Source: a virus
Virus genome (UHGV): UHGV-2172388
Length of the DNA: 32,728 bases
Reading direction: 5' to 3' (one strand)
Positions within the stretch are counted from its first letter, which is position 1; each line of letters starts with the position of its first letter. A program made the translations under genes and the position numbers. This document shows, piece after piece, positions 7,220-18,520 of the stretch. The notes beneath the pieces were generated by a model. The model did not search any database. It had not been told where the DNA came from and worked only from the letters and a program-made list of their open reading frames with translations.

Positions 7220-7334
7220 AAAGAGTACGGATATGCGATGCGCATCACCGTATCGCCTCATCTGAACGCTGGATGCCCCTTCCCCACCAGAGTTAGTGTC
7301 TGACCCAACGAAAGAACCTACAGGGGAAAATACC

Positions 7335-7571
7335 ATGACTATTCAGGCCGCCAGAACCCGCCCAATGACCGATACCGCCCGCCGCATCAGAGACACCATA
7401 GTTAGCGTCGGCGTTCGCAGCACATGGCCGCTGAGCGATCTGGCCGACTACGCAGGTATAGAAATGGTTAACGCTGAATTTATTGTGACGCAGATGGAAC
7501 TGGCCGGTTACCTGAAGAAAACCCACTGGGGCCACTATATGTTAACCAGCGCGGGTATTGAGGCGGCATAA
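7335..7571 (+). CDS. Hypothetical small protein, possible winged-helix DNA-binding protein (accessory)
   Basis: 78-aa ORF from ATG 7335 with AGGGGAAAA upstream; not part of the P2 backbone; convergent with doc. Confidence 0.4.
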   Translation: MTIQAARTRPMTDTARRIRDTIVSVGVRSTWPLSDLADYAGIEMVNAEFIVTQMELAGYLKKTHWGHYMLTSAGIEAA

Positions 7572-7573
7572 TT

Positions 7574-7598
7574 AAAAACAGCCCGATCTGTCGGGCTG
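7574..7598 (-). terminator. Hairpin terminator between convergent genes (serves the doc transcript, possibly bidirectional)
   Basis: 8-bp stem CAGCCCGA/TCGGGCTG with 4-nt loop; A5 on the plus strand gives a T-run after the hairpin on the minus strand. Confidence 0.55.
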
Positions 7599-7603
7599 TA
7601 ACG

Positions 7604-7981
7604 TCAGGAAGCATTTACATCACTAAGGGTATAGAAAATATCGGCTAAATCATCCAGATTCAGCGTTCCCTCAGCCACATCCACCATAATATCTTCCAGC
7701 TTTTGTGTTCGCTTGAGGTTCACACCCTGCATATCAAGGTATGTCAACGCCGTCACCAGTGCCGTTCGCTTGTTGGCATCAGCAAAAACGTGCCCTCTGG
7801 CGATGGCAACCGCATAAGATGCGGCGATCTGGAAAATATCATTCATCTGCTCATACAGAATACGGTTATCCACCCGCGCCAGTGTTGCCTCGACCCGGCC
7901 AGCATCCTGATAACCAACCAATCCCGGCTCATGAGCAAGAATAAAATCGTGAATTCCAATCACCAAATGTGCATCAATCAT
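7604..7981 (-). CDS. doc: Doc-family toxin (Fic-fold kinase, death-on-curing)
   Basis: 125 aa; motif GHVFADANKRTAL matches the Doc/Fic signature HxFx(D/N)(A/G)NKR; overall layout resembles P1 Doc as recalled. Confidence 0.85.
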   Translation of the reverse strand: MIDAHLVIGIHDFILAHEPGLVGYQDAGRVEATLARVDNRILYEQMNDIFQIAASYAVAIARGHVFADANKRTALVTALTYLDMQGVNLKRTQKLEDIMVDVAEGTLNLDDLADIFYTLSDVNAS

Positions 7982-8166
7982 CGGTTAGCCAGCGCCTTAA
8001 TGACTTTGTTGTGTCTGGCATAAATACGTTCTGCCGACTTTTTAATCACACGCTCACCTTCCGGGCCGTCCAGTTTCATTTCGACGGGTACGAACTGCCC
8101 ACTCATACTGTCTCTTTTTACGACCTTGATACCGTATCGGCTGGCAGGACTGCTATTCTTCGCCAT
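7978..8166 (-). CDS. Putative Doc antitoxin, not Phd/YefM-like at the N-terminus (possibly AbrB/MazE-like), C-terminus ...NKVIKALANR
   Basis: 62-aa ORF, stop overlaps the doc start (ATGA); AGAGG RBS 10 nt upstream; C-terminal tail resembles the Doc-neutralising end of P1 Phd (...NKELVNR). Confidence 0.55.
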   Translation of the reverse strand: MAKNSSPASRYGIKVVKRDSMSGQFVPVEMKLDGPEGERVIKKSAERIYARHNKVIKALANR

Positions 8167-8212
8167 TATTTTTTACCTCTAATACTCTTTATTAAAAGTA
8201 TATACCTATCTG

Positions 8213-8392
8213 CTAATCTTTTGTTTCAATGCCTCGTGACTGAAGCTCTTTCCTGATAATTCGCTTAATCCACGCGGAAACAGAGGCATCACCATCAGCT
8301 TTAAGTGCCTGCTGAATTCCGGCCTCAAGAGCAGGATCTACTCGTAACGCGATTTGCTTACTGCCTTTGCCTTGAATAGAAATGGTTGACAC
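8213..8392 (-). CDS. Small ribbon-helix-helix-like protein (59 aa, GTG start), candidate regulator upstream of the antitoxin-doc pair
   Basis: Hand translation of the minus strand: VSTISIQGKGSKQIALRVDPALEAGIQQALKADGDASVSAWIKRIIRKELQSRGIETKD; AGGAG RBS 9 nt before GTG; below the 60-aa cutoff of the ORF track. Confidence 0.35.
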   Translation of the reverse strand: MSTISIQGKGSKQIALRVDPALEAGIQQALKADGDASVSAWIKRIIRKELQSRGIETKD

Positions 8393-8413
8393 TTGCTATA
8401 CTCCTGCTATATT
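8386..8413 (+). promoter_or_regulatory. Near-consensus sigma70 promoter TTGACA-16 nt-TATATT
   Basis: Direct reading; drives rightward toward ORFs 8527 and 8722. Confidence 0.45.
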
Positions 8414-8435
8414 TTCCTACAGTTAGTAAAGCAAG

Positions 8436-8455
8436 TGTATGACAACAGTCATACA
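8436..8455. promoter_or_regulatory. Perfect 8-4-8 palindrome TGTATGAC-AACA-GTCATACA (operator or leader hairpin)
   Basis: Direct reading; lies about 20-40 nt downstream of the -10 element. Confidence 0.45.
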
Positions 8456-8526
8456 AAAACAACGAAGCCCGCAGGTGCTACCAACACCAACGGGCCTCTG
8501 ACCACAACATTATTGAGGCTAATGCT

Positions 8527-8733
8527 ATGGCTACCGCTAATAGTAACATACGCGCACATTCAAAGCTCTACACCTTCCTGAACGCCCGTTCCAACCGCCT
8601 GCTGCGCGAGATCCAGCCATTGCGTCTGGTGTCCGTACTGGCAACAACAGAGATCGAGGCTCGCGACCTGCTGGCGGGTTTCCCGCTGGTATTTGTCTCC
8701 TGCAAGCCGCTGGAGGTGCGCCATGGTGCCTGA
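8527..8733 (+). CDS. Hypothetical protein (68 aa), accessory
   Basis: ORF with GAGG RBS; stop overlaps the next ORF start by 11 nt; no family recognised. Confidence 0.4.
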   Translation: MATANSNIRAHSKLYTFLNARSNRLLREIQPLRLVSVLATTEIEARDLLAGFPLVFVSCKPLEVRHGA

Positions 8734-9043
8734 AACCAACCTGCTTTCTTCCGAACTGGCCGATGTGATCCGCAAGCTGGATATTTCGAATCTCAACGCA
8801 GACGACACCCTGCAACTGGCCAACAGCAGCGAGGAGTGCTGCGCCGGATTGTGCCACGGCCTGCACTTTCTGGGTAAAACCTTCGTATCCTTCGCCGACA
8901 GCAACGTATTGGAGTTCTCACCGGAAAGCCTGTGCCAGTTAGGACACGGCCTGCTAGCCAGTGCACTGCTGATCCCGGCGCTGATCCAAATCCAGAAGTC
9001 CGCAGAACGGCAAATCATCAACACCGACACCGGCGAGGCATAA
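8722..9043 (+). CDS. Hypothetical protein (about 107 aa), accessory
   Basis: ATG 8722 (MVPETNLL...) overlapping the upstream ORF, suggesting translational coupling; no family recognised. Confidence 0.4.
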
Positions 9044-12107: not shown

Positions 12108-12563
12108 ATGCCTAATCAACATACTGTTGAAGAATCAACGCGAGCCGCTATCAATGAACTTTTGCGTAACGATGCTCATTTGCTGATTACAGATAATAGT
12201 GAACGGGCTATCGCCAACCGCTTGGGTAGATATCTGGAAAATAACTTCCCGGAATGGGATGTAGACTGTGAATACAATAGAAATGGGGATGCAGTTAAAA
12301 GATTAATTTACGCAGTTGAACCTAACGGAAATGCAAGCGAACGTGATGTTATCCCGGATATTATCGTTCACCACCGAGGAACCGATGAAAACCTGATTGC
12401 GTTCGAACTGAAAAAATCGACCAACAACCAAAGAAATGGCAGAGAAAAAGACCTCCTCAAGCTGCAGGCGTTTAAAGAACAATTGGGTTATAAATATGCC
12501 GTTTTTGTGTCTCTTAAAACAGGCTGTGCGAACCCTGAAGTTACCGAAATCCACTGGATTTAA
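12108..12563 (+). CDS. Moron: PD-(D/E)xK nuclease-fold-like hypothetical protein
   Basis: 151 aa in AT-rich DNA between S and V; putative motifs ...IPDIIVHH... and ...IAFELKK... read as PD and ExK; family assigned by motif only. Confidence 0.5.
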   Translation: MPNQHTVEESTRAAINELLRNDAHLLITDNSERAIANRLGRYLENNFPEWDVDCEYNRNGDAVKRLIYAVEPNGNASERDVIPDIIVHHRGTDENLIAFELKKSTNNQRNGREKDLLKLQAFKEQLGYKYAVFVSLKTGCANPEVTEIHWI

Positions 12564-15098: not shown

Positions 15099-16606
15099 GC
15101 GCTACCTATTTCACGCTATTAACCACTACCGGCGAATCCGCGCTGGCGACCGCCACCGCACAGGGTTCGCCTCTTCATCTGACGCAAATGGCCGTTGGTG
15201 ACGGAAATGGTAACCTGCCAACGCCGGATACCGGCCAAACCCGGTTAGTCAACGAACGCCGACGTGCGCCGCTGAATACGCTCAGTATTGACCCTAACAA
15301 CCCCAACCAGATTATTGCCGAACAGGTATTGCCGGAGGACGTAGGCGGATGGTGGATCAGGGAAATTGGCCTGTACGACGAGCACGACCGGCTGATTGCC
15401 GTCGGCAACTGCCCGCCAACCTACAAGCCGCAGTTAATCGAAGGTTCGGGCCGCACACAGATTATCCGCATGGTGCTGATTGTCTCCCATACGGAAAACG
15501 TGGAACTGAAAATCGACCCTGCCGTGGTGCTGGCAACAAGACAGTATGTGGATGAAGGCCTATCCCGCCACGCGCAGTCCCGTAACCATCCTGACGCCAC
15601 CTTAACCGCCAAAGGATTTGCCCAATTAAGCAGCGCGACCAACAGCATCAGCGAAACACTGGCCGCCACGCCCAAAGCGATGAAAGCAGCCTACGATCTG
15701 GCTAATGGAAAATATACCGAACAGGATGCCACCACAGCGCGCAAAGGGGTTGTCCAGCTTAGCAGCGAAACCAACAGCACCAGCGAAACGCTCGCCGCCA
15801 CGCCCAAAGCGGTGAAAGCGGCCTACGATCTGGCTAATGGAAAATATACCGAGCAGGATGCCACCACGACGCGCAAAGGGGTTGCCCAGCTTAGTAGCGC
15901 CATCGACAGCACCAGCGAAACGCTGGCCGCCACGCCTAAAGCGGTAAAAGCGGCAGTAGACAAAGCGCTGGCGGCGGAAACCTGTCCGGTCGGCGCGCCG
16001 ATACCGTGGTCATCCGATGCCATCCCCAGCGGCTACGCCCTGATGGTCGGTCAGTCCTTCAATAAAACCTCCTACCCTAAGCTGGCAATCGCTTACCCCT
16101 CCGGTGTAATCCCGGATATGCGCGGCTGGACAATCAAGGGGAAACCCGCCAGCGGACGCACGATACTGTCTCAGGAGCAGGATGGCATTAAATCGCATGG
16201 TCACACCGCCAGCGCCACTAACACGGATTTAGGTACTAAAACCGCCAGTTCCACCGATTTGGGTACCAAAAATACCAGCGCGTTTGACTACGGGACAAAA
16301 TCGACCAATACCACCGGCGCGCACAACCACCAAATTCCGACTGACGGCATAAAAACAGGGAAGAATATGGCGTCAGTGGTGGGTTCTGATAATAGCGATG
16401 AAGATTTCAGGGACGTGACAAGTACCAATGGCAACCACGCCCACACCGTTGCTATCGGCGCACATACCCATTCGCTGGCTATCGGCGCACATAACCACAC
16501 CGTCGTCTTAGGTTCCCACAGCCACACTATTACGGTGAATGCCGCCGGGAACGCCGAAAACACCGTTAAAAATATCGCTTTCAACTATATCGTGAGGCTG
16601 GCATGA
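15095..16606 (+). CDS. H: Tail fiber protein (P2 gpH-like) with internal tandem repeats and His-rich C-terminal domain
   Basis: 503 aa; conserved N-terminus; three ~44-aa repeats; C-terminal HxH-rich tract ([29 protein letters not shown]). Confidence 0.9.
15611..15955 (+). repeat. Coding tandem repeat, 132-nt unit, 2.6 copies, inside tail fiber gene H
   Basis: Units start at 15611, 15743, 15875; protein repeat ...KG(V/F)[37 protein letters not shown]. Confidence 0.85.
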
Positions 16607-17310
16607 GCACATTCGCATTTTCCGACGAACCGCAAACCCTGCGCATCTTTAACTACGCGGCAGACACTCAGGAATTTATCGGCGTCAGCGACGCCTATAT
16701 CGCCCCCAACACCGGCTTACCGGAATGCTGTACCACTATCGAGCCTCCCGAATGCCAGAGCGGCTTTGCCCTGACATTCAACGGAGAAACATGGCTTGCG
16801 GTAGAAGATCATCGCGGTAAAACCGCGTTTGATACCGATGCGGGCAGTGAGGTACAGCTTCATCATCTGGGGCCATTGCCGGATAACGTCACTCTGCTGA
16901 AGCCCGATAACGCCTTTGTCCGTTGGGACGGCAAACGCTGGCGGCCCGATATCGAAAAAGCCCGACAGGCAAAGGTGGCAGAAATAAAGCAGTATCGAGA
17001 TCGAATCACCGCCGACTACATCATCATCGATAATCACCATTTCCACAGCGACGCTAACAGCCGCATCCAGCAGCTCTCGCTCACCAAAATGGGCGTGGCT
17101 AAACAAATACCGGCAGGCTTAATGTGGCAGACCAAAAATCACAACCTGATTGAACTGACCAACGAAATCGCCGCCCGGTTTGAAACCGAAACAATGGCGC
17201 ACGATATGCGCCTGTTCGCCGCTGCCCAGCAGCATATTGCCGCCATTGAAGCATTGACGGAGGTGCAGGCGGTTATGGGTTACGACTACTCGTCAGGATG
17301 GCAACCATGA
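16603..17310 (+). CDS. G: Tail fiber assembly chaperone (P2 gpG-like)
   Basis: 235 aa directly after H with ATGA overlap; synteny. Confidence 0.8.
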
Positions 17311-17765
17311 GTCAGGTTTACGCGGCGTTCTACCGTGGCCGGGCTGAACGCTTTTTCAGCCTTGCCCGGCTCTCCGACTGGCTGACTCGACAGGTCACGC
17401 GCGGCCCTTACTCTCACTGCGAACTGGTCGAACGCCAGCCGGATGGCCTGTTTATCTGTTACTCATCATCGGTACGGGATAAAGGCGTGCGCAGCAAACG
17501 AATGCCGCTGCCGATTGAGAAATGGGATTTACTCCCGATCAACGCCGATCCGCTGGCACTGGAAACCTTTTTTCGTCAGCATGACGATAAAGGTTACGAC
17601 TGGCTGGGCGCCATGGGTTTTGTGTTACTCAGTCAGGGCAAACAGGAACGCCTGTTTTGCAGCGAGTTCTGCGCCGAATTTCTGCACCTGCGCGATAGCT
17701 GGCGCTGGTCGCCTAATCTGCTGTATGCGTTGGTCAGCAGTCGGTCTGGAAAATTGACAATATGA
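17307..17765 (+). CDS. Hypothetical protein (about 152 aa) at the G/FI accessory locus, translationally coupled to the downstream methyltransferase
   Basis: ATG 17307 overlaps the G stop; its stop overlaps the dam start; no family recognised. Confidence 0.45.
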   Translation: MSQVYAAFYRGRAERFFSLARLSDWLTRQVTRGPYSHCELVERQPDGLFICYSSSVRDKGVRSKRMPLPIEKWDLLPINADPLALETFFRQHDDKGYDWLGAMGFVLLSQGKQERLFCSEFCAEFLHLRDSWRWSPNLLYALVSSRSGKLTI

Positions 17766-18520
17766 ATACGTTACCCGTTATTCCGTGGATCGGCGGCAAA
17801 CGCCGACTGGCGAAACACATCCTGCCGCTGTTTCCTGAACACCGCTGTTACGTCGAGCCATTTTGCGGAGCGGCGGCGCTGTTCTTTATGAAACGCCCCG
17901 CTCAGGCCGAGGTGCTGAATGATATCAACGGTGACGTTACCAACCTCTACCGGGTACTCCAGCACCATTTAGAAGAGTTTGTCCGCCAGTTTAAATGGTC
18001 GCTGGTCAGCCGCGAAATGTACCGCTGGCTCCAGATCACCCCGGAAGAAACGCTGACCGACATCCAGCGCGCGGCGCGCTTCTACTATCTGCAAAAGCTG
18101 GCGTTCGGCGGCAAGGTGGAAAGCCGCACGTTCGGTACCGCCACCACCTCACCGCCACGCCTGAACCTGCTGCGTATGGAGGAAGATTTATCCGCCGCCC
18201 ATCTGCGGCTGGCGCGCGTCTGTATTGAAAATCTGGACTGGGCCGACTGTATTCGCCGCTATGACCGCCCGCATACCCTGTTCTACTGCGACCCGCCATA
18301 CTGGAAAACCGAAGGCTACGGCGTACCGTTTGGCCTTGAGCAGTACCAGCGTATGGCAGAGCTGGCGCGCACCATGCAGGGCCGGATGATTATCTCGGTT
18401 AACGACATCCCGGAAATGCGCGATATCTTCCACGGCCTGACATTCTCAACGGTAGGGATTCGCTATACCGTAGGCGGAAAGCCAGCCAGCGCTACATCAG
18501 AACTGATTATCCTGAATTAA
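17762..18520 (+). CDS. dam: DNA N6-adenine methyltransferase (Dam-like, D12 class), orphan
   Basis: 252 aa; N-terminal WIGGKRRL and SAM-binding EPFCGAAAL; catalytic FYCDPPY (DPPY) motif. Confidence 0.85.
   Translation: MNTLPVIPWIGGKRRLAKHILPLFPEHRCYVEPFCGAAALFFMKRPAQAEVLNDINGDVTNLYRVLQHHLEEFVRQFKWSLVSREMYRWLQITPEETLTDIQRAARFYYLQKLAFGGKVESRTFGTATTSPPRLNLLRMEEDLSAAHLRLARVCIENLDWADCIRRYDRPHTLFYCDPPYWKTEGYGVPFGLEQYQRMAELARTMQGRMIISVNDIPEMRDIFHGLTFSTVGIRYTVGGKPASATSELIILN

What the first reader, a model, noticed from the sequence alone, without database searches (positions are those of the whole stretch)
7604..8392. Doc toxin module with a non-Phd antitoxin and an extra upstream RHH ORF, inserted between L and X
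Seen in sequence: a Doc/Fic-motif toxin (GHVFADANKR) preceded by a 62-aa lysine-rich ORF whose stop overlaps the doc start. Its N-terminus does not resemble P1 Phd as recalled (possibly AbrB/MazE-like), yet its C-terminal tail ends ...NKVIKALANR, like the Doc-neutralising tail of Phd. Upstream in the same orientation is a 59-aa GTG-initiated RHH-like ORF absent from the ORF track. A hairpin with T-run follows doc. Inference: a tripartite or domain-shuffled Doc addiction/abortive-infection module carried as phage cargo.
Basis: partly seen in the sequence, partly recalled or inferred. Interest (0 to 1): 0.55.

Follow-up and report, generated by a model that had tools for sequence, protein, structure and literature searches.

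The report
Doc toxin with minimal helix-only antitoxin
A P2-like prophage of E. coli carries a Doc "death-on-curing" toxin whose partner is a small unannotated antitoxin that seems to consist of little more than the Doc-blocking helix, while the extra upstream gene belongs to a neighbouring regulatory cassette borrowed from phage satellites, not to the toxin module.

Summary
All the described features are present. They are a 125-aa Doc toxin (7604-7981, minus), a 62-aa basic ORF overlapping it by ATGA (7978-8166), a 59-aa GTG-initiated ORF (8213-8392) and a hairpin with a T-run after doc. They lie between P2 genes L and X in an E. coli prophage.

The 62-aa protein belongs to an unannotated family of at least 170 clusters, mostly from Betaproteobacteria, with no Pfam or NCBIfam match. 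In 15 of 19 evaluable genome loci, a Doc gene, intact or decayed, lies directly downstream. I read it as the cognate antitoxin.

It has no Phd/YefM or AbrB domain. AlphaFold gives one confident helix (residues 35-60). In a C-terminus-anchored register, its near-invariant residues fall on the six experimentally defined Doc-binding hot spots of Salmonella Phd. General alignment statistics are not significant.

The tripartite reading is not supported. Betaproteobacterial loci lack the 59-aa gene. Its homologues occur without Doc in P4-like/PICI-like satellites, divergent from their early operon. In another P2-like prophage the downstream gene is an unrelated 177-aa ORF.

Verdict: an ordinary type II Doc module with a minimal, Phd-C-like antitoxin, placed behind a satellite-type regulator. 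Interest is modest.

The parts
7604..7981 (-). doc: 125-aa Doc/Fic-fold toxin with the motif H-V-F-A-D-A-N-K-R
   Evidence: TIGR01550 88.5 bits (cutoff 38.65) and Pfam Fic 41.5 bits. PHROG 577 'Doc-like toxin' at 1.6e-35. P1 Doc 3K33_A at E 1.5e-25. It is 41.5% identical to P1 Doc and 60.8% identical to the Doc of Burkholderia phage phiBtTUL1a.
7978..8166 (-). 62-aa cognate antitoxin of an unannotated family: a variable basic N-terminal part and a conserved C-terminal region (P27-R62) containing one long helix (35-60)
   Evidence: No Pfam, NCBIfam, PADLOC or PDB match. PHROG 11529 (unknown function) at 2.2e-5. The family has at least 170 clusters, all 'hypothetical'. Doc lies directly downstream in 15 of 19 evaluable loci. 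AF2 model has pLDDT about 95 for residues 35-60. Phd hot-spot register.
7578..7599 (-). Intrinsic-terminator-like hairpin followed by a T-run, ending the doc transcript
   Evidence: Nine pairs, six of them G-C, tail TTTTTAATTAT. The block conserved with Edwardsiella starts at 7577.
8167..8212 (-). 46-nt A+T-rich spacer between the 59-aa stop and the antitoxin start; holds the SD GAGGT; no terminator and no consensus promoter detected
   Evidence: Sequence read. Scan found no terminator or promoter here. The spacer is nearly identical in L002.
8213..8392 (-). 59-aa Arc/RHH-like small regulator (YlcI/YnfO-like), GTG start; part of a satellite-type divergent cassette, adjacent to the TA pair but not specific to it
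   Evidence: NF041551 20.4 bits, below the cutoff of 30. PHROG 228 Arc-like at 6e-4. AF2 gives extended segment-helix-helix. Homologues lie in satellites without Doc; distant YlcI/YnfO-annotated counterparts hold the same position in E. coli satellites. Homology to the Klebsiella satellite covers 8219-8532.
8386..8455 (.). Divergent control region: plus-strand promoter TTGACA-16-(TG)TATATT at 8386-8413; palindromes 8389-8402/8425-8438 and 8436-8443/8448-8455 (candidate operators)
   Evidence: This region and the N-terminal third of the 59-aa gene are replaced together in prophage L002, which has different palindromes.
8455..8532 (-). Neighbouring element, not part of the TA: candidate SymR-like cis-antisense RNA opposite the leader and start codon of the Icd-like ORF
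   Evidence: RF01809 33.8 bits (gathering score 61), E 1e-4. Fold -39.3 kcal/mol, z -4.9. Compensatory changes at 8 of 19 pairs in 7 sequences.
8527..9043 (+). Neighbouring element: Icd-like 68-aa ORF (8527-8733) and 106-aa ORF (8723-9043), divergent from the 59-aa gene
   Evidence: NF033153 24.1 bits against a cutoff of 25. PHROGs 20855 and 19484. A gene order with the same annotation (YlcI/YnfO gene, then Icd-like gene, then a 106-aa ORF) occurs in E. coli satellites; no sequence similarity of the window's proteins to theirs was detected.

Best explanation
The block is a conventional two-gene type II Doc toxin-antitoxin module.

- **Toxin (inferred from family membership):** Doc phosphorylates EF-Tu and arrests translation.
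- **Antitoxin (inferred):** the 62-aa protein neutralises Doc with a single amphipathic C-terminal helix (residues about 35-62). This helix does the job of the 'Phd-C' neutralisation element of P1 and Salmonella Phd. Its short, basic, poorly ordered N-terminal part is not a recognisable DNA-binding domain and probably makes the protein labile.
- **Setting (shown):** the pair came from a lineage common in Betaproteobacteria, their plasmids and their phages. It now sits in the accessory/defence hotspot downstream of gpL of enterobacterial P2-like prophages.
- **The 59-aa gene (shown by comparison):** in that hotspot the pair lies directly behind a 59-aa Arc/RHH-like gene. That gene belongs to a separate cassette (RHH gene, divergent promoter and leader, early genes) shared with P4-like/PICI-like satellites. 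The RHH protein most likely binds the palindromes in the divergent control region (inferred).
- **Transcription (inferred):** no terminator or clear promoter lies between the RHH gene and the antitoxin gene. The pair is therefore probably expressed by read-through from the RHH promoter, ending at the hairpin after doc. This is a juxtaposition, not a co-evolved three-component system.
For: - **Doc identity:**
- **Linkage of the 62-aa family to Doc:** in 20 genome loci found with the family pattern, 10 have an intact Doc that overlaps the antitoxin stop or starts within 10 nt of it. Five have a fragmented Doc, one ends at a contig edge and four lack Doc. The same pair occurs in Burkholderia phage phiBtTUL1a and on a Robbsia plasmid; the family also matches Janthinobacterium and Polaromonas plasmids.
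- **No third gene elsewhere:** no homologue of the 59-aa protein is present in any betaproteobacterial locus, and no conserved upstream gene was found.
- **Helix-only architecture:** AF2 on 105 sequences gives one helix, 35-60, at pLDDT about 95. The rest has pLDDT 56-71.
- **Phd-C-like register:** hot spots F56, I59, M60, H63, L67 and L70 of Salmonella Phd (PMC9207808; sequence confirmed) align with family positions A45 (98/101 A), V48 (95 V), I49 (71 I), H52 (100 H), I56 (98 I) and L59 (101 L). The tail alignment scores z 3.3-4.1 above shuffles. hhalign independently picks the same register, though without significance.
- **Precedent:** Phd-C is an exchangeable linear neutralising element, and single-domain antitoxins are known (PMC10440598).
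- **RHH independence:**
  - An 84%-identical homologue in a Klebsiella satellite has no Doc. A 72%-identical Pasteurella homologue also lacks Doc.
  - Distant YlcI/YnfO-annotated genes sit in the same position in E. coli satellites.
  - In L725 a variant RHH gene is followed by a 177-aa ORF.
  - Nucleotide homology to the satellite spans 8219-8532, ending at the RHH stop.
  - In L002 the antitoxin and Doc are identical, while the RHH N-terminus and operator region are swapped.
- **Hotspot:** PMC13586616.
Against: - General alignment methods see no similarity to Phd. hhalign probability is below 1%. Smith-Waterman scores are no better than shuffles, p about 0.3. The Phd-C likeness therefore rests on a pre-chosen, end-anchored register.
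- Phd F56, a 'gatekeeper' residue, aligns with Ala in this family.
- No complex model could be made, so binding and neutralisation are inferred.
- In every enterobacterial locus examined the pair has an RHH gene directly upstream. These loci are and the Edwardsiella locus L005. A functional dependence on it there cannot be excluded.
- The N-terminal YG(I/V)x(I/V)K motif is semi-conserved and unexplained. It could contribute to DNA binding or dimerisation.
Confidence: 0.7

Rival explanations
1. A true three-component Doc system, analogous to paaR-paaA-parE or omega-epsilon-zeta. The 59-aa RHH protein would be the dedicated transcriptional regulator that a DNA-binding-less antitoxin needs, and all three genes would form one co-evolved operon.
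For: - The three genes are co-oriented, with a 46-nt gap and no terminator or consensus promoter between the RHH and antitoxin genes.
- The antitoxin has no recognisable DNA-binding domain.
- The block 7577-8512 (Doc, antitoxin, RHH gene and control region) is conserved as a unit at 90% identity in Edwardsiella.
- The exact RHH protein is listed in 461 blocks of the collection, and every place read shows it in this same context.
Against: - All enterobacterial instances are one closely related lineage (at least 90% nucleotide identity), so this is a single juxtaposition event.
- The pair works as a two-gene unit elsewhere, without any RHH homologue.
- The RHH family is far broader than the pair. 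It sits in satellites without Doc and precedes another cargo gene in L725.
- A recombination breakpoint inside the RHH gene exchanges its N-terminus together with the divergent operator, not with the toxin-antitoxin pair.
Confidence: 0.17
2. A domain-shuffled antitoxin: an AbrB/MazE-type (or other known) DNA-binding N-terminal domain fused to a Phd-like tail.
For: - Mix-and-match of antitoxin DNA-binding domains with Doc is well documented, for example AbrB/MazE with Fic/Doc (PMC2701414).
- The N-terminal part has a semi-conserved YG(I/V)x(I/V)K strand-like motif and many basic residues.
Against: - No Pfam or NCBIfam hit at E <= 1.
- Many family members have only about 15 residues before the conserved region, too few for an AbrB swapped hairpin.
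- AF2 gives only two 2-residue strand fragments, at pLDDT 56-71.
Confidence: 0.05
3. The 59-aa RHH protein is the real antitoxin of Doc, and the 62-aa protein is an accessory factor such as a chaperone or adaptor.
For: - RHH proteins are common antitoxins.
- Some sources label homologues of the 59-aa protein 'HicB family antitoxin'.
Against: - The 62-aa gene, not the RHH gene, is translationally coupled to doc through the ATGA overlap.
- The 62-aa family is tied to Doc across Betaproteobacteria, where no RHH gene is present.
- The RHH family occurs without any toxin in satellites.
Confidence: 0.03

Closest known systems
phd-doc of phage P1 and of Salmonella Typhimurium (STM3558/3559)
   Same: - The toxin is homologous: 41.5% identity to P1 Doc, with the same HxFxDANKR motif.
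- The gene order is the same, with the antitoxin gene upstream and overlapping the toxin gene.
- The predicted neutralising element is a C-terminal amphipathic helix ending in a basic residue.
- Hydrophobic and His positions lie in the same register as the Phd hot spots.
   Different: - The Phd/YefM N-terminal DNA-binding domain is absent.
- Sequence similarity of the tail is not statistically significant by general methods.
- Ala stands in place of the gatekeeper Phe56.
- Instead of the kinked two-helix Phd-C, one continuous helix is predicted in the monomer model.
Doc:PanA(Phd-C) of Corynebacterium doosanense and the 'linear neutralisation' model (Ernits et al. 2023, PMC10440598)
   Same: - The idea is the same: a short Phd-C-type element alone carries Doc neutralisation.
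- That element can be attached to different domains, or to none.
   Different: - Here no globular domain is attached at all.
- The family is separate and unannotated.
Three-component TA systems with a separate regulator (paaR-paaA-parE; omega-epsilon-zeta)
   Same: - A small antitoxin without a DNA-binding domain lies behind a small regulator gene in the same orientation.
   Different: - The regulator here is not conserved with the toxin-antitoxin pair.
- It belongs to a satellite-type divergent cassette found without any toxin (distant counterparts).
- This comparison with paaR and omega rests on my own knowledge of those systems.
YlcI/YnfO-family small proteins and the regulatory region of P4-like/PICI-like satellites
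   Same: - The 59-aa protein gives a weak YlcI/YnfO_N match.
- Close homologues (84% and 72% identity) lie divergent from the early operon of Klebsiella and Pasteurella satellites.
- Distant YlcI/YnfO-annotated genes lie divergent from an Icd-like gene in E. coli satellites.
   Different: - The window protein scores below the NCBIfam cutoff (20.4 against 30).
- The cassette here sits inside a P2-like helper-type prophage, not in a satellite.

Membership tests
Doc (Fic/Doc fold; TIGR01550 DOC_P1, PF02661) | Profile score above the curated cutoff | tested here: met
   TIGR01550 88.5 bits (cutoff 38.65); PF02661 41.5 bits (cutoff 24).
Doc (Fic/Doc fold; TIGR01550 DOC_P1, PF02661) | Doc-type Fic motif HxFx(D/N)(A/G)NKR | tested here: met
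   GHVFADANKR aligns with GHIFNDANKR of P1 Doc.
Doc (Fic/Doc fold; TIGR01550 DOC_P1, PF02661) | Phosphorylation of EF-Tu and growth arrest | not testable with these tools
   Needs a kinase or toxicity assay.
Phd/YefM antitoxin (PF02604) | N-terminal Phd/YefM DNA-binding and dimerisation domain | tested here: not met
   No Pfam or NCBIfam hit at E <= 1. No PDB Phd hit at E <= 10. hhalign probability 0.06% against P1 Phd and 0.3% against Salmonella Phd.
Phd-C neutralisation element | C-terminal helix with hydrophobic hot spots that fill the Doc groove | tested here: inconclusive
   Confident helix at 35-60. The anchored tail alignment scores z 3.3-4.1 above shuffles, and 5 of 6 hot-spot positions are conserved in character. 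The unbiased Smith-Waterman comparison is not significant. No complex model was possible.
AbrB/MazE (SpoVT_AbrB) antitoxin | Swapped-hairpin beta-barrel N-terminal domain | tested here: not met
   No profile hit. The N-terminal part varies in length and is often about 15 residues. AF2 shows no such fold.
Ribbon-helix-helix (Arc/MetJ/CopG; YlcI/YnfO NF041551) for the 59-aa ORF | Profile match above cutoff, or a strand-helix-helix fold matched to a solved RHH structure | tested here: inconclusive
Three-component (regulator-antitoxin-toxin) TA system | The third gene is conserved with the toxin-antitoxin pair across independent lineages | tested here: not met
   The pair occurs without the RHH gene in Betaproteobacteria, plasmids and a phage. 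The RHH gene occurs without the pair in satellites and in L725.
Three-component (regulator-antitoxin-toxin) TA system | A single transcript, and regulator binding at the operon promoter | not testable with these tools
   Only indirect evidence: no terminator between the genes, and palindromes upstream of the RHH gene.
P2-like accessory/defence hotspot downstream of gpL | Variable cargo between the head-completion gene L and tail gene X | tested here: met
   Different cargo at the same site: this island, a variant, an added HigBA-like pair (locus L026; homologous ORFs in Edwardsiella L005), and RelE/HTH plus a 177-aa ORF in L725. The hotspot is described in PMC13586616.

The most novel reading that the evidence does not exclude
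The P2-like prophage has wired a Doc toxin to a captured satellite-type genetic switch. The switch consists of the RHH repressor, its divergent promoter, a SymR-like antisense RNA and an Icd-like gene. Anything that disturbs this switch, such as induction, a P4-like satellite or a superinfecting phage, would then shut off supply of the labile helix-only antitoxin and release Doc. On this reading the three genes act as a functional sensor-antitoxin-toxin abortive-infection unit even though they did not co-evolve.
Probability: 0.12. Interest if true: 0.6.

Novelty: new variant of a known kind. Interest (0 to 1): 0.33.

Why it matters
- It adds a widespread but unannotated antitoxin family to Doc toxins: at least 170 sequence clusters with no Pfam or NCBIfam model.
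- The family looks like a natural 'neutralising element only' antitoxin. That is the minimal form predicted by the linear-neutralisation model, and it is a compact template for Doc-inhibiting peptides.
- It shows that gene adjacency in phage hotspots can mimic a tripartite system. Here two independent mobile cassettes were juxtaposed.
- Annotation pipelines could label the 62-aa family as a Doc-associated antitoxin.
- Otherwise this is an ordinary type II TA module in a known P2 cargo hotspot.

Tried and rejected
- Megablast of the island against the phage collection found no match.
- tblastn of the 62-aa protein against phages found only a chance hit, E = 10.
- A PDB sequence search with the 62-aa protein gave only chance hits. 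The RHH family profile likewise gave nothing.
- hhalign of the family profile against P1 Phd and Salmonella Phd was not significant.
- Smith-Waterman alignment against Phd was not significant.
- PADLOC gave no hit for the 62-aa or 59-aa proteins. Doc itself hits only the candidate PDC-M59B.
- I did not run a fold search on the antitoxin model, because a single helix is uninformative.
- The Rfam gathering-threshold scan of the whole window found nothing.
- The first search for related loci attempt failed because the alignment was too divergent. It succeeded with a narrower alignment.
- The Garcia-Pino 2008 Phd-Doc structure paper is not held, so I took contact residues from PMC9207808 instead.
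- A model of the antitoxin-Doc complex could not be made with the tools available.
- I considered the Fic inhibitory-helix motif (S/T)xxxE(G/N) for the conserved 'SGxEG' and rejected it. The Ser is one residue out of register and the Glu is not conserved. The motif itself is from my own knowledge.
Full report

Yes. The minus strand carries three ORFs. They are 8392..8213 (59 aa, GTG), 8166..7978 (62 aa) and 7981..7604 (125 aa). The last two share an ATGA stop/start overlap.

The 125-aa protein is a Doc toxin.
- It scores 88.5 bits on TIGR01550 (cutoff 38.65) and 41.5 bits on Pfam Fic.
- It matches PHROG 'Doc-like toxin' at 1.6e-35.
- It matches P1 Doc 3K33_A at E 1.5e-25, with GHVFADANKR aligned to GHIFNDANKR.

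A G+C-rich hairpin with a T-run (7599..7578) follows doc.

The GTG ORF looks like a real gene. It has an AGGAG sequence 8 nt upstream. Homologues start with ATG at the same position. RefSeq annotates it.

The window is 100% identical to the chromosome of E. coli GMF054. There the block lies in a P2-like prophage between the head-completion gene L and tail gene X. G+C content drops to 42-51% across the block, against 58-64% in the flanking structural genes.

**2. What is the 62-aa protein?**

It matches nothing in Pfam, NCBIfam, PADLOC or the PDB. The only hit is an unnamed 43-residue PHROG.

An exhaustive phmmer search found 8 representative relatives. A profile built from them found at least 170 clusters. 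All are 'hypothetical' with no Pfam domain, and the named ones are almost all from Betaproteobacteria.

The family shares a conserved C-terminal block: PVxMxLxGxxGxRVVxxAAKRVIxxHxxVIKALAxR. Before it comes a short basic segment that varies in length and carries a loose YG(I/V)x(I/V)K motif.

I tested genomic linkage on 20 genome loci retrieved with the family pattern.

| Downstream of the antitoxin gene | Loci |
|---|---|
| Intact Doc overlapping the antitoxin stop or starting within 10 nt of it | 10 |
| Doc in fragments | 5 |
| Contig ends | 1 |
| No Doc | 4 |

The same pair occurs in Burkholderia phage phiBtTUL1a, whose Doc is 61% identical, and on a Robbsia plasmid. The family also matches Janthinobacterium and Polaromonas plasmids.

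A small gene that is translationally coupled to Doc, linked to it across lineages, and retained when the toxin decays behaves as the cognate antitoxin.

**3. How does it probably neutralise Doc?**

AlphaFold2 with 105 family sequences gives one long helix (35-60) at pLDDT about 95. The N-terminal 34 residues are modelled with low confidence. No Phd/YefM, AbrB or RHH fold appears.

General comparisons with Phd are negative.
- hhalign probability is 0.06% against P1 Phd and 0.3% against Salmonella Phd.
- Smith-Waterman scores are no better than shuffles.

I aligned the tails without gaps from their C-termini. The window tail then scores z 3.3-4.1 above shuffles against both Phd proteins.

An alanine scan of the Salmonella Phd 52-73 peptide defined six Doc-binding hot spots: F56, I59, M60, H63, L67 and L70 (PMC9207808; sequence confirmed). 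Each falls on a conserved position of the new family.

| Salmonella Phd hot spot | Family position | Commonest residue (of 101 sequences) |
|---|---|---|
| F56 | 45 | A (98) |
| I59 | 48 | V (95) |
| M60 | 49 | I (71), otherwise hydrophobic |
| H63 | 52 | H (100) |
| L67 | 56 | I (98) |
| L70 | 59 | L (101) |

hhalign also chose this register, although without significance.

Ernits et al. showed that 'Phd-C' is an exchangeable linear neutralising element. It works when fused to Panacea or to SUMO. They also note that single-domain antitoxins exist (PMC10440598).

My reading is that this family is a stand-alone Phd-C-like antitoxin. Binding and neutralisation are inferred, not shown. The Ala at the position of the gatekeeper Phe56 is a real difference.

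**4. Is the 59-aa gene a third component?**

Comparative evidence says no.

- *The pair exists without it.* Betaproteobacterial loci contain no homologue of it and no conserved upstream gene.
- *Its family is much broader than the pair in Enterobacterales and Pasteurellaceae.* There are 58 clusters.
  - An 84%-identical copy in Klebsiella sits in a P4-like island in the order int, DUF6387, AlpA, [RHH]. It is divergent from a string of small genes leading to a D5-type primase, with no Doc.
  - A 72%-identical Pasteurella copy is divergent from an Ash to DUF927-primase operon.
  - In E. coli satellites, distant genes annotated as YlcI/YnfO hold the same position. They are divergent from an Icd-like gene, a 106-aa ORF, DUF4222 and a primase. 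By annotation and gene order this mirrors the divergent neighbours in this window. No sequence similarity between the window's proteins and theirs was detected; only a 44-nt leader segment is shared.
- *The homology boundary is sharp.* Nucleotide homology between the window and the Klebsiella satellite runs from 8219 to 8532. It covers the RHH gene, the control region and the leader, and stops at the RHH stop codon.
- *The RHH N-terminus travels with the operator, not with the toxin pair.* In two other P2-like prophages (L002, L038) the antitoxin is 100% identical, and Doc carries the same RefSeq accession in L002. A recombination breakpoint at 8296 replaces the N-terminal third of the RHH protein together with the control region. 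The replaced part includes the presumed DNA-reading strand, KQIALRV changed to PPFQFRL. The replacement region carries different palindromes.
- *The downstream slot is variable.* In E. coli L725 a third RHH variant (YVVQLRL) is followed by an unrelated 177-aa ORF in place of the antitoxin-Doc pair.

All enterobacterial RHH-antitoxin-Doc instances are one closely related lineage. They include the Edwardsiella block, which matches 7577-8512 at 90% identity.

The arrangement is therefore a juxtaposition of a two-gene TA module behind the regulator of a satellite-type cassette. No terminator or consensus promoter lies in the 46-nt spacer. Read-through expression from the RHH promoter is plausible, and a regulatory dependence in this host is not excluded. 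I give that rival about 0.17.

The RHH fold itself is only weakly supported.
- The NCBIfam score is below cutoff and the PHROG hit is Arc-like at 6e-4.
- Homologues give scattered weak hits to RHH families.
- AF2 gives an extended segment plus two helices.

**5. Context and likely role**

The site downstream of gpL is a recognised defence/accessory hotspot of P2-like phages (PMC13586616). Here it holds different toxin-antitoxin cargo in different prophages. One example is a HigBA-like pair in locus L026, with homologous ORFs in Edwardsiella locus L005. L725 carries a RelE/HTH pair. HicAB sits at the separate S-V site in L002.

The family's presence on plasmids fits an addiction role. The hotspot location fits a phage-exclusion role. 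Neither was tested.

**6. Comparison, novelty and verdict**

The toxin is a plain member of the Doc family. The antitoxin is not a member of Phd/YefM or AbrB, because their defining N-terminal domains were tested and not met. It probably works like Phd-C.

Mix-and-match of Doc with different antitoxins is established (PMC2701414; PMC10440598). What is new is an unannotated, fairly widespread helix-only antitoxin family, plus the clarification that the apparent tripartite layout is an accident of cassette juxtaposition.

I rate it a new variant of a known kind, with interest about 0.33.

**7. Seen in passing**

The minus strand at about 8532..8455 encodes a candidate SymR-like antisense RNA. 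It lies opposite the leader and start codon of the Icd-like ORF.
- It scores 33.8 bits on Rfam SymR (RF01809), below the gathering score of 61, with E 1e-4.
- It folds into two hairpins and a U-run at -39.3 kcal/mol, z -4.9.
- In 7 sequences, 8 of 19 pairs show compensatory changes, and invariant G-U pairs favour this strand.
- A 44-nt core is conserved in about 20 E. coli genomes. In the two I examined it lies in satellite-like islands.

Noticed in passing
window 8455-8532 (minus strand): Candidate SymR-like cis-antisense small RNA opposite the 5' leader, RBS and start codon (8527) of the Icd-like ORF. Rfam SymR 33.8 bits (below the gathering score of 61), E 1e-4. It has two hairpins and a U-run, z -4.9. 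By eye there is an extended -10 (TGtTACTAT) at 8548-8540. Compensatory changes occur at 8 of 19 pairs across 7 related loci. With the Icd-like gene it could form a type I toxin-antitoxin-like pair.
   Followed up: partly
window 8213-9043; loci L031, L035, L039, L040, L042: The divergent cassette (small RHH gene, promoter and leader, early small genes) recurs in P4-like/PICI-like satellites of E. coli, Klebsiella and Pasteurella, next to int-AlpA and DUF4222-primase genes. E. coli satellites L039 and L040 have the same annotated gene order as the window (YlcI/YnfO gene, Icd-like gene, 106-aa ORF), but only a 44-nt leader segment is detectably similar. A helper-type P2-like prophage therefore carries a piece of a satellite's regulatory region.
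   Followed up: partly
window 8297-8492 against L002 6049-6240: A recombination breakpoint lies inside the RHH gene. The N-terminal third (predicted DNA-reading strand, KQIALRV changed to PPFQFRL) and the palindrome-bearing control region are swapped together between prophages. The C-terminal part, the antitoxin and Doc stay 97-100% identical. This looks like an immunity-specificity exchange.
   Followed up: partly
L042 1642-2403 (E. coli L725 P2-like prophage, same L-X site): A third RHH variant (58 aa, strand YVVQLRL) is followed by an unannotated 177-aa ORF with no Pfam match, in place of the antitoxin-Doc pair. A RelE/ParE-HTH pair lies further upstream. The slot behind the RHH gene seems to accept alternative cargo.
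   Followed up: partly
loci L007, L009, L011, L013, L015: In 5 of 20 betaproteobacterial loci the Doc gene is broken into fragments while the small antitoxin gene stays intact. In 4 more loci (L014, L017, L020, L021) the antitoxin-like gene has no Doc downstream at all.
   Followed up: no
window 7335-7571 (plus strand): A 78-aa ORF lies between gene L and doc (RefSeq WP_089558884.1; the longest ORF starts at 7296). It matches PHROG 331 (unknown function) and gives only faint winged-helix-like hits (Mrr_N, MCM8 WHD). It is conserved at this site in several P2-like prophages.
   Followed up: no
window about 12108-12563 (L001 13859-14314): A 151-aa hypothetical ORF lies between the virion-morphogenesis gene (P2 S) and baseplate gene V. 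In prophage L002 a HicA/HicB pair occupies this position, so it is a second cargo slot in this phage.
   Followed up: no
L001 1-1750 (just upstream of the window start, beyond the portal gene) and window about 16603-18150: Two DUF262-domain proteins sit next to the portal gene, at the known P2 hotspot by the cos site. Further along the window, after the tail-fibre gene, lie a DUF4376 protein, a hypothetical ORF and a DNA adenine methylase.
   Followed up: no
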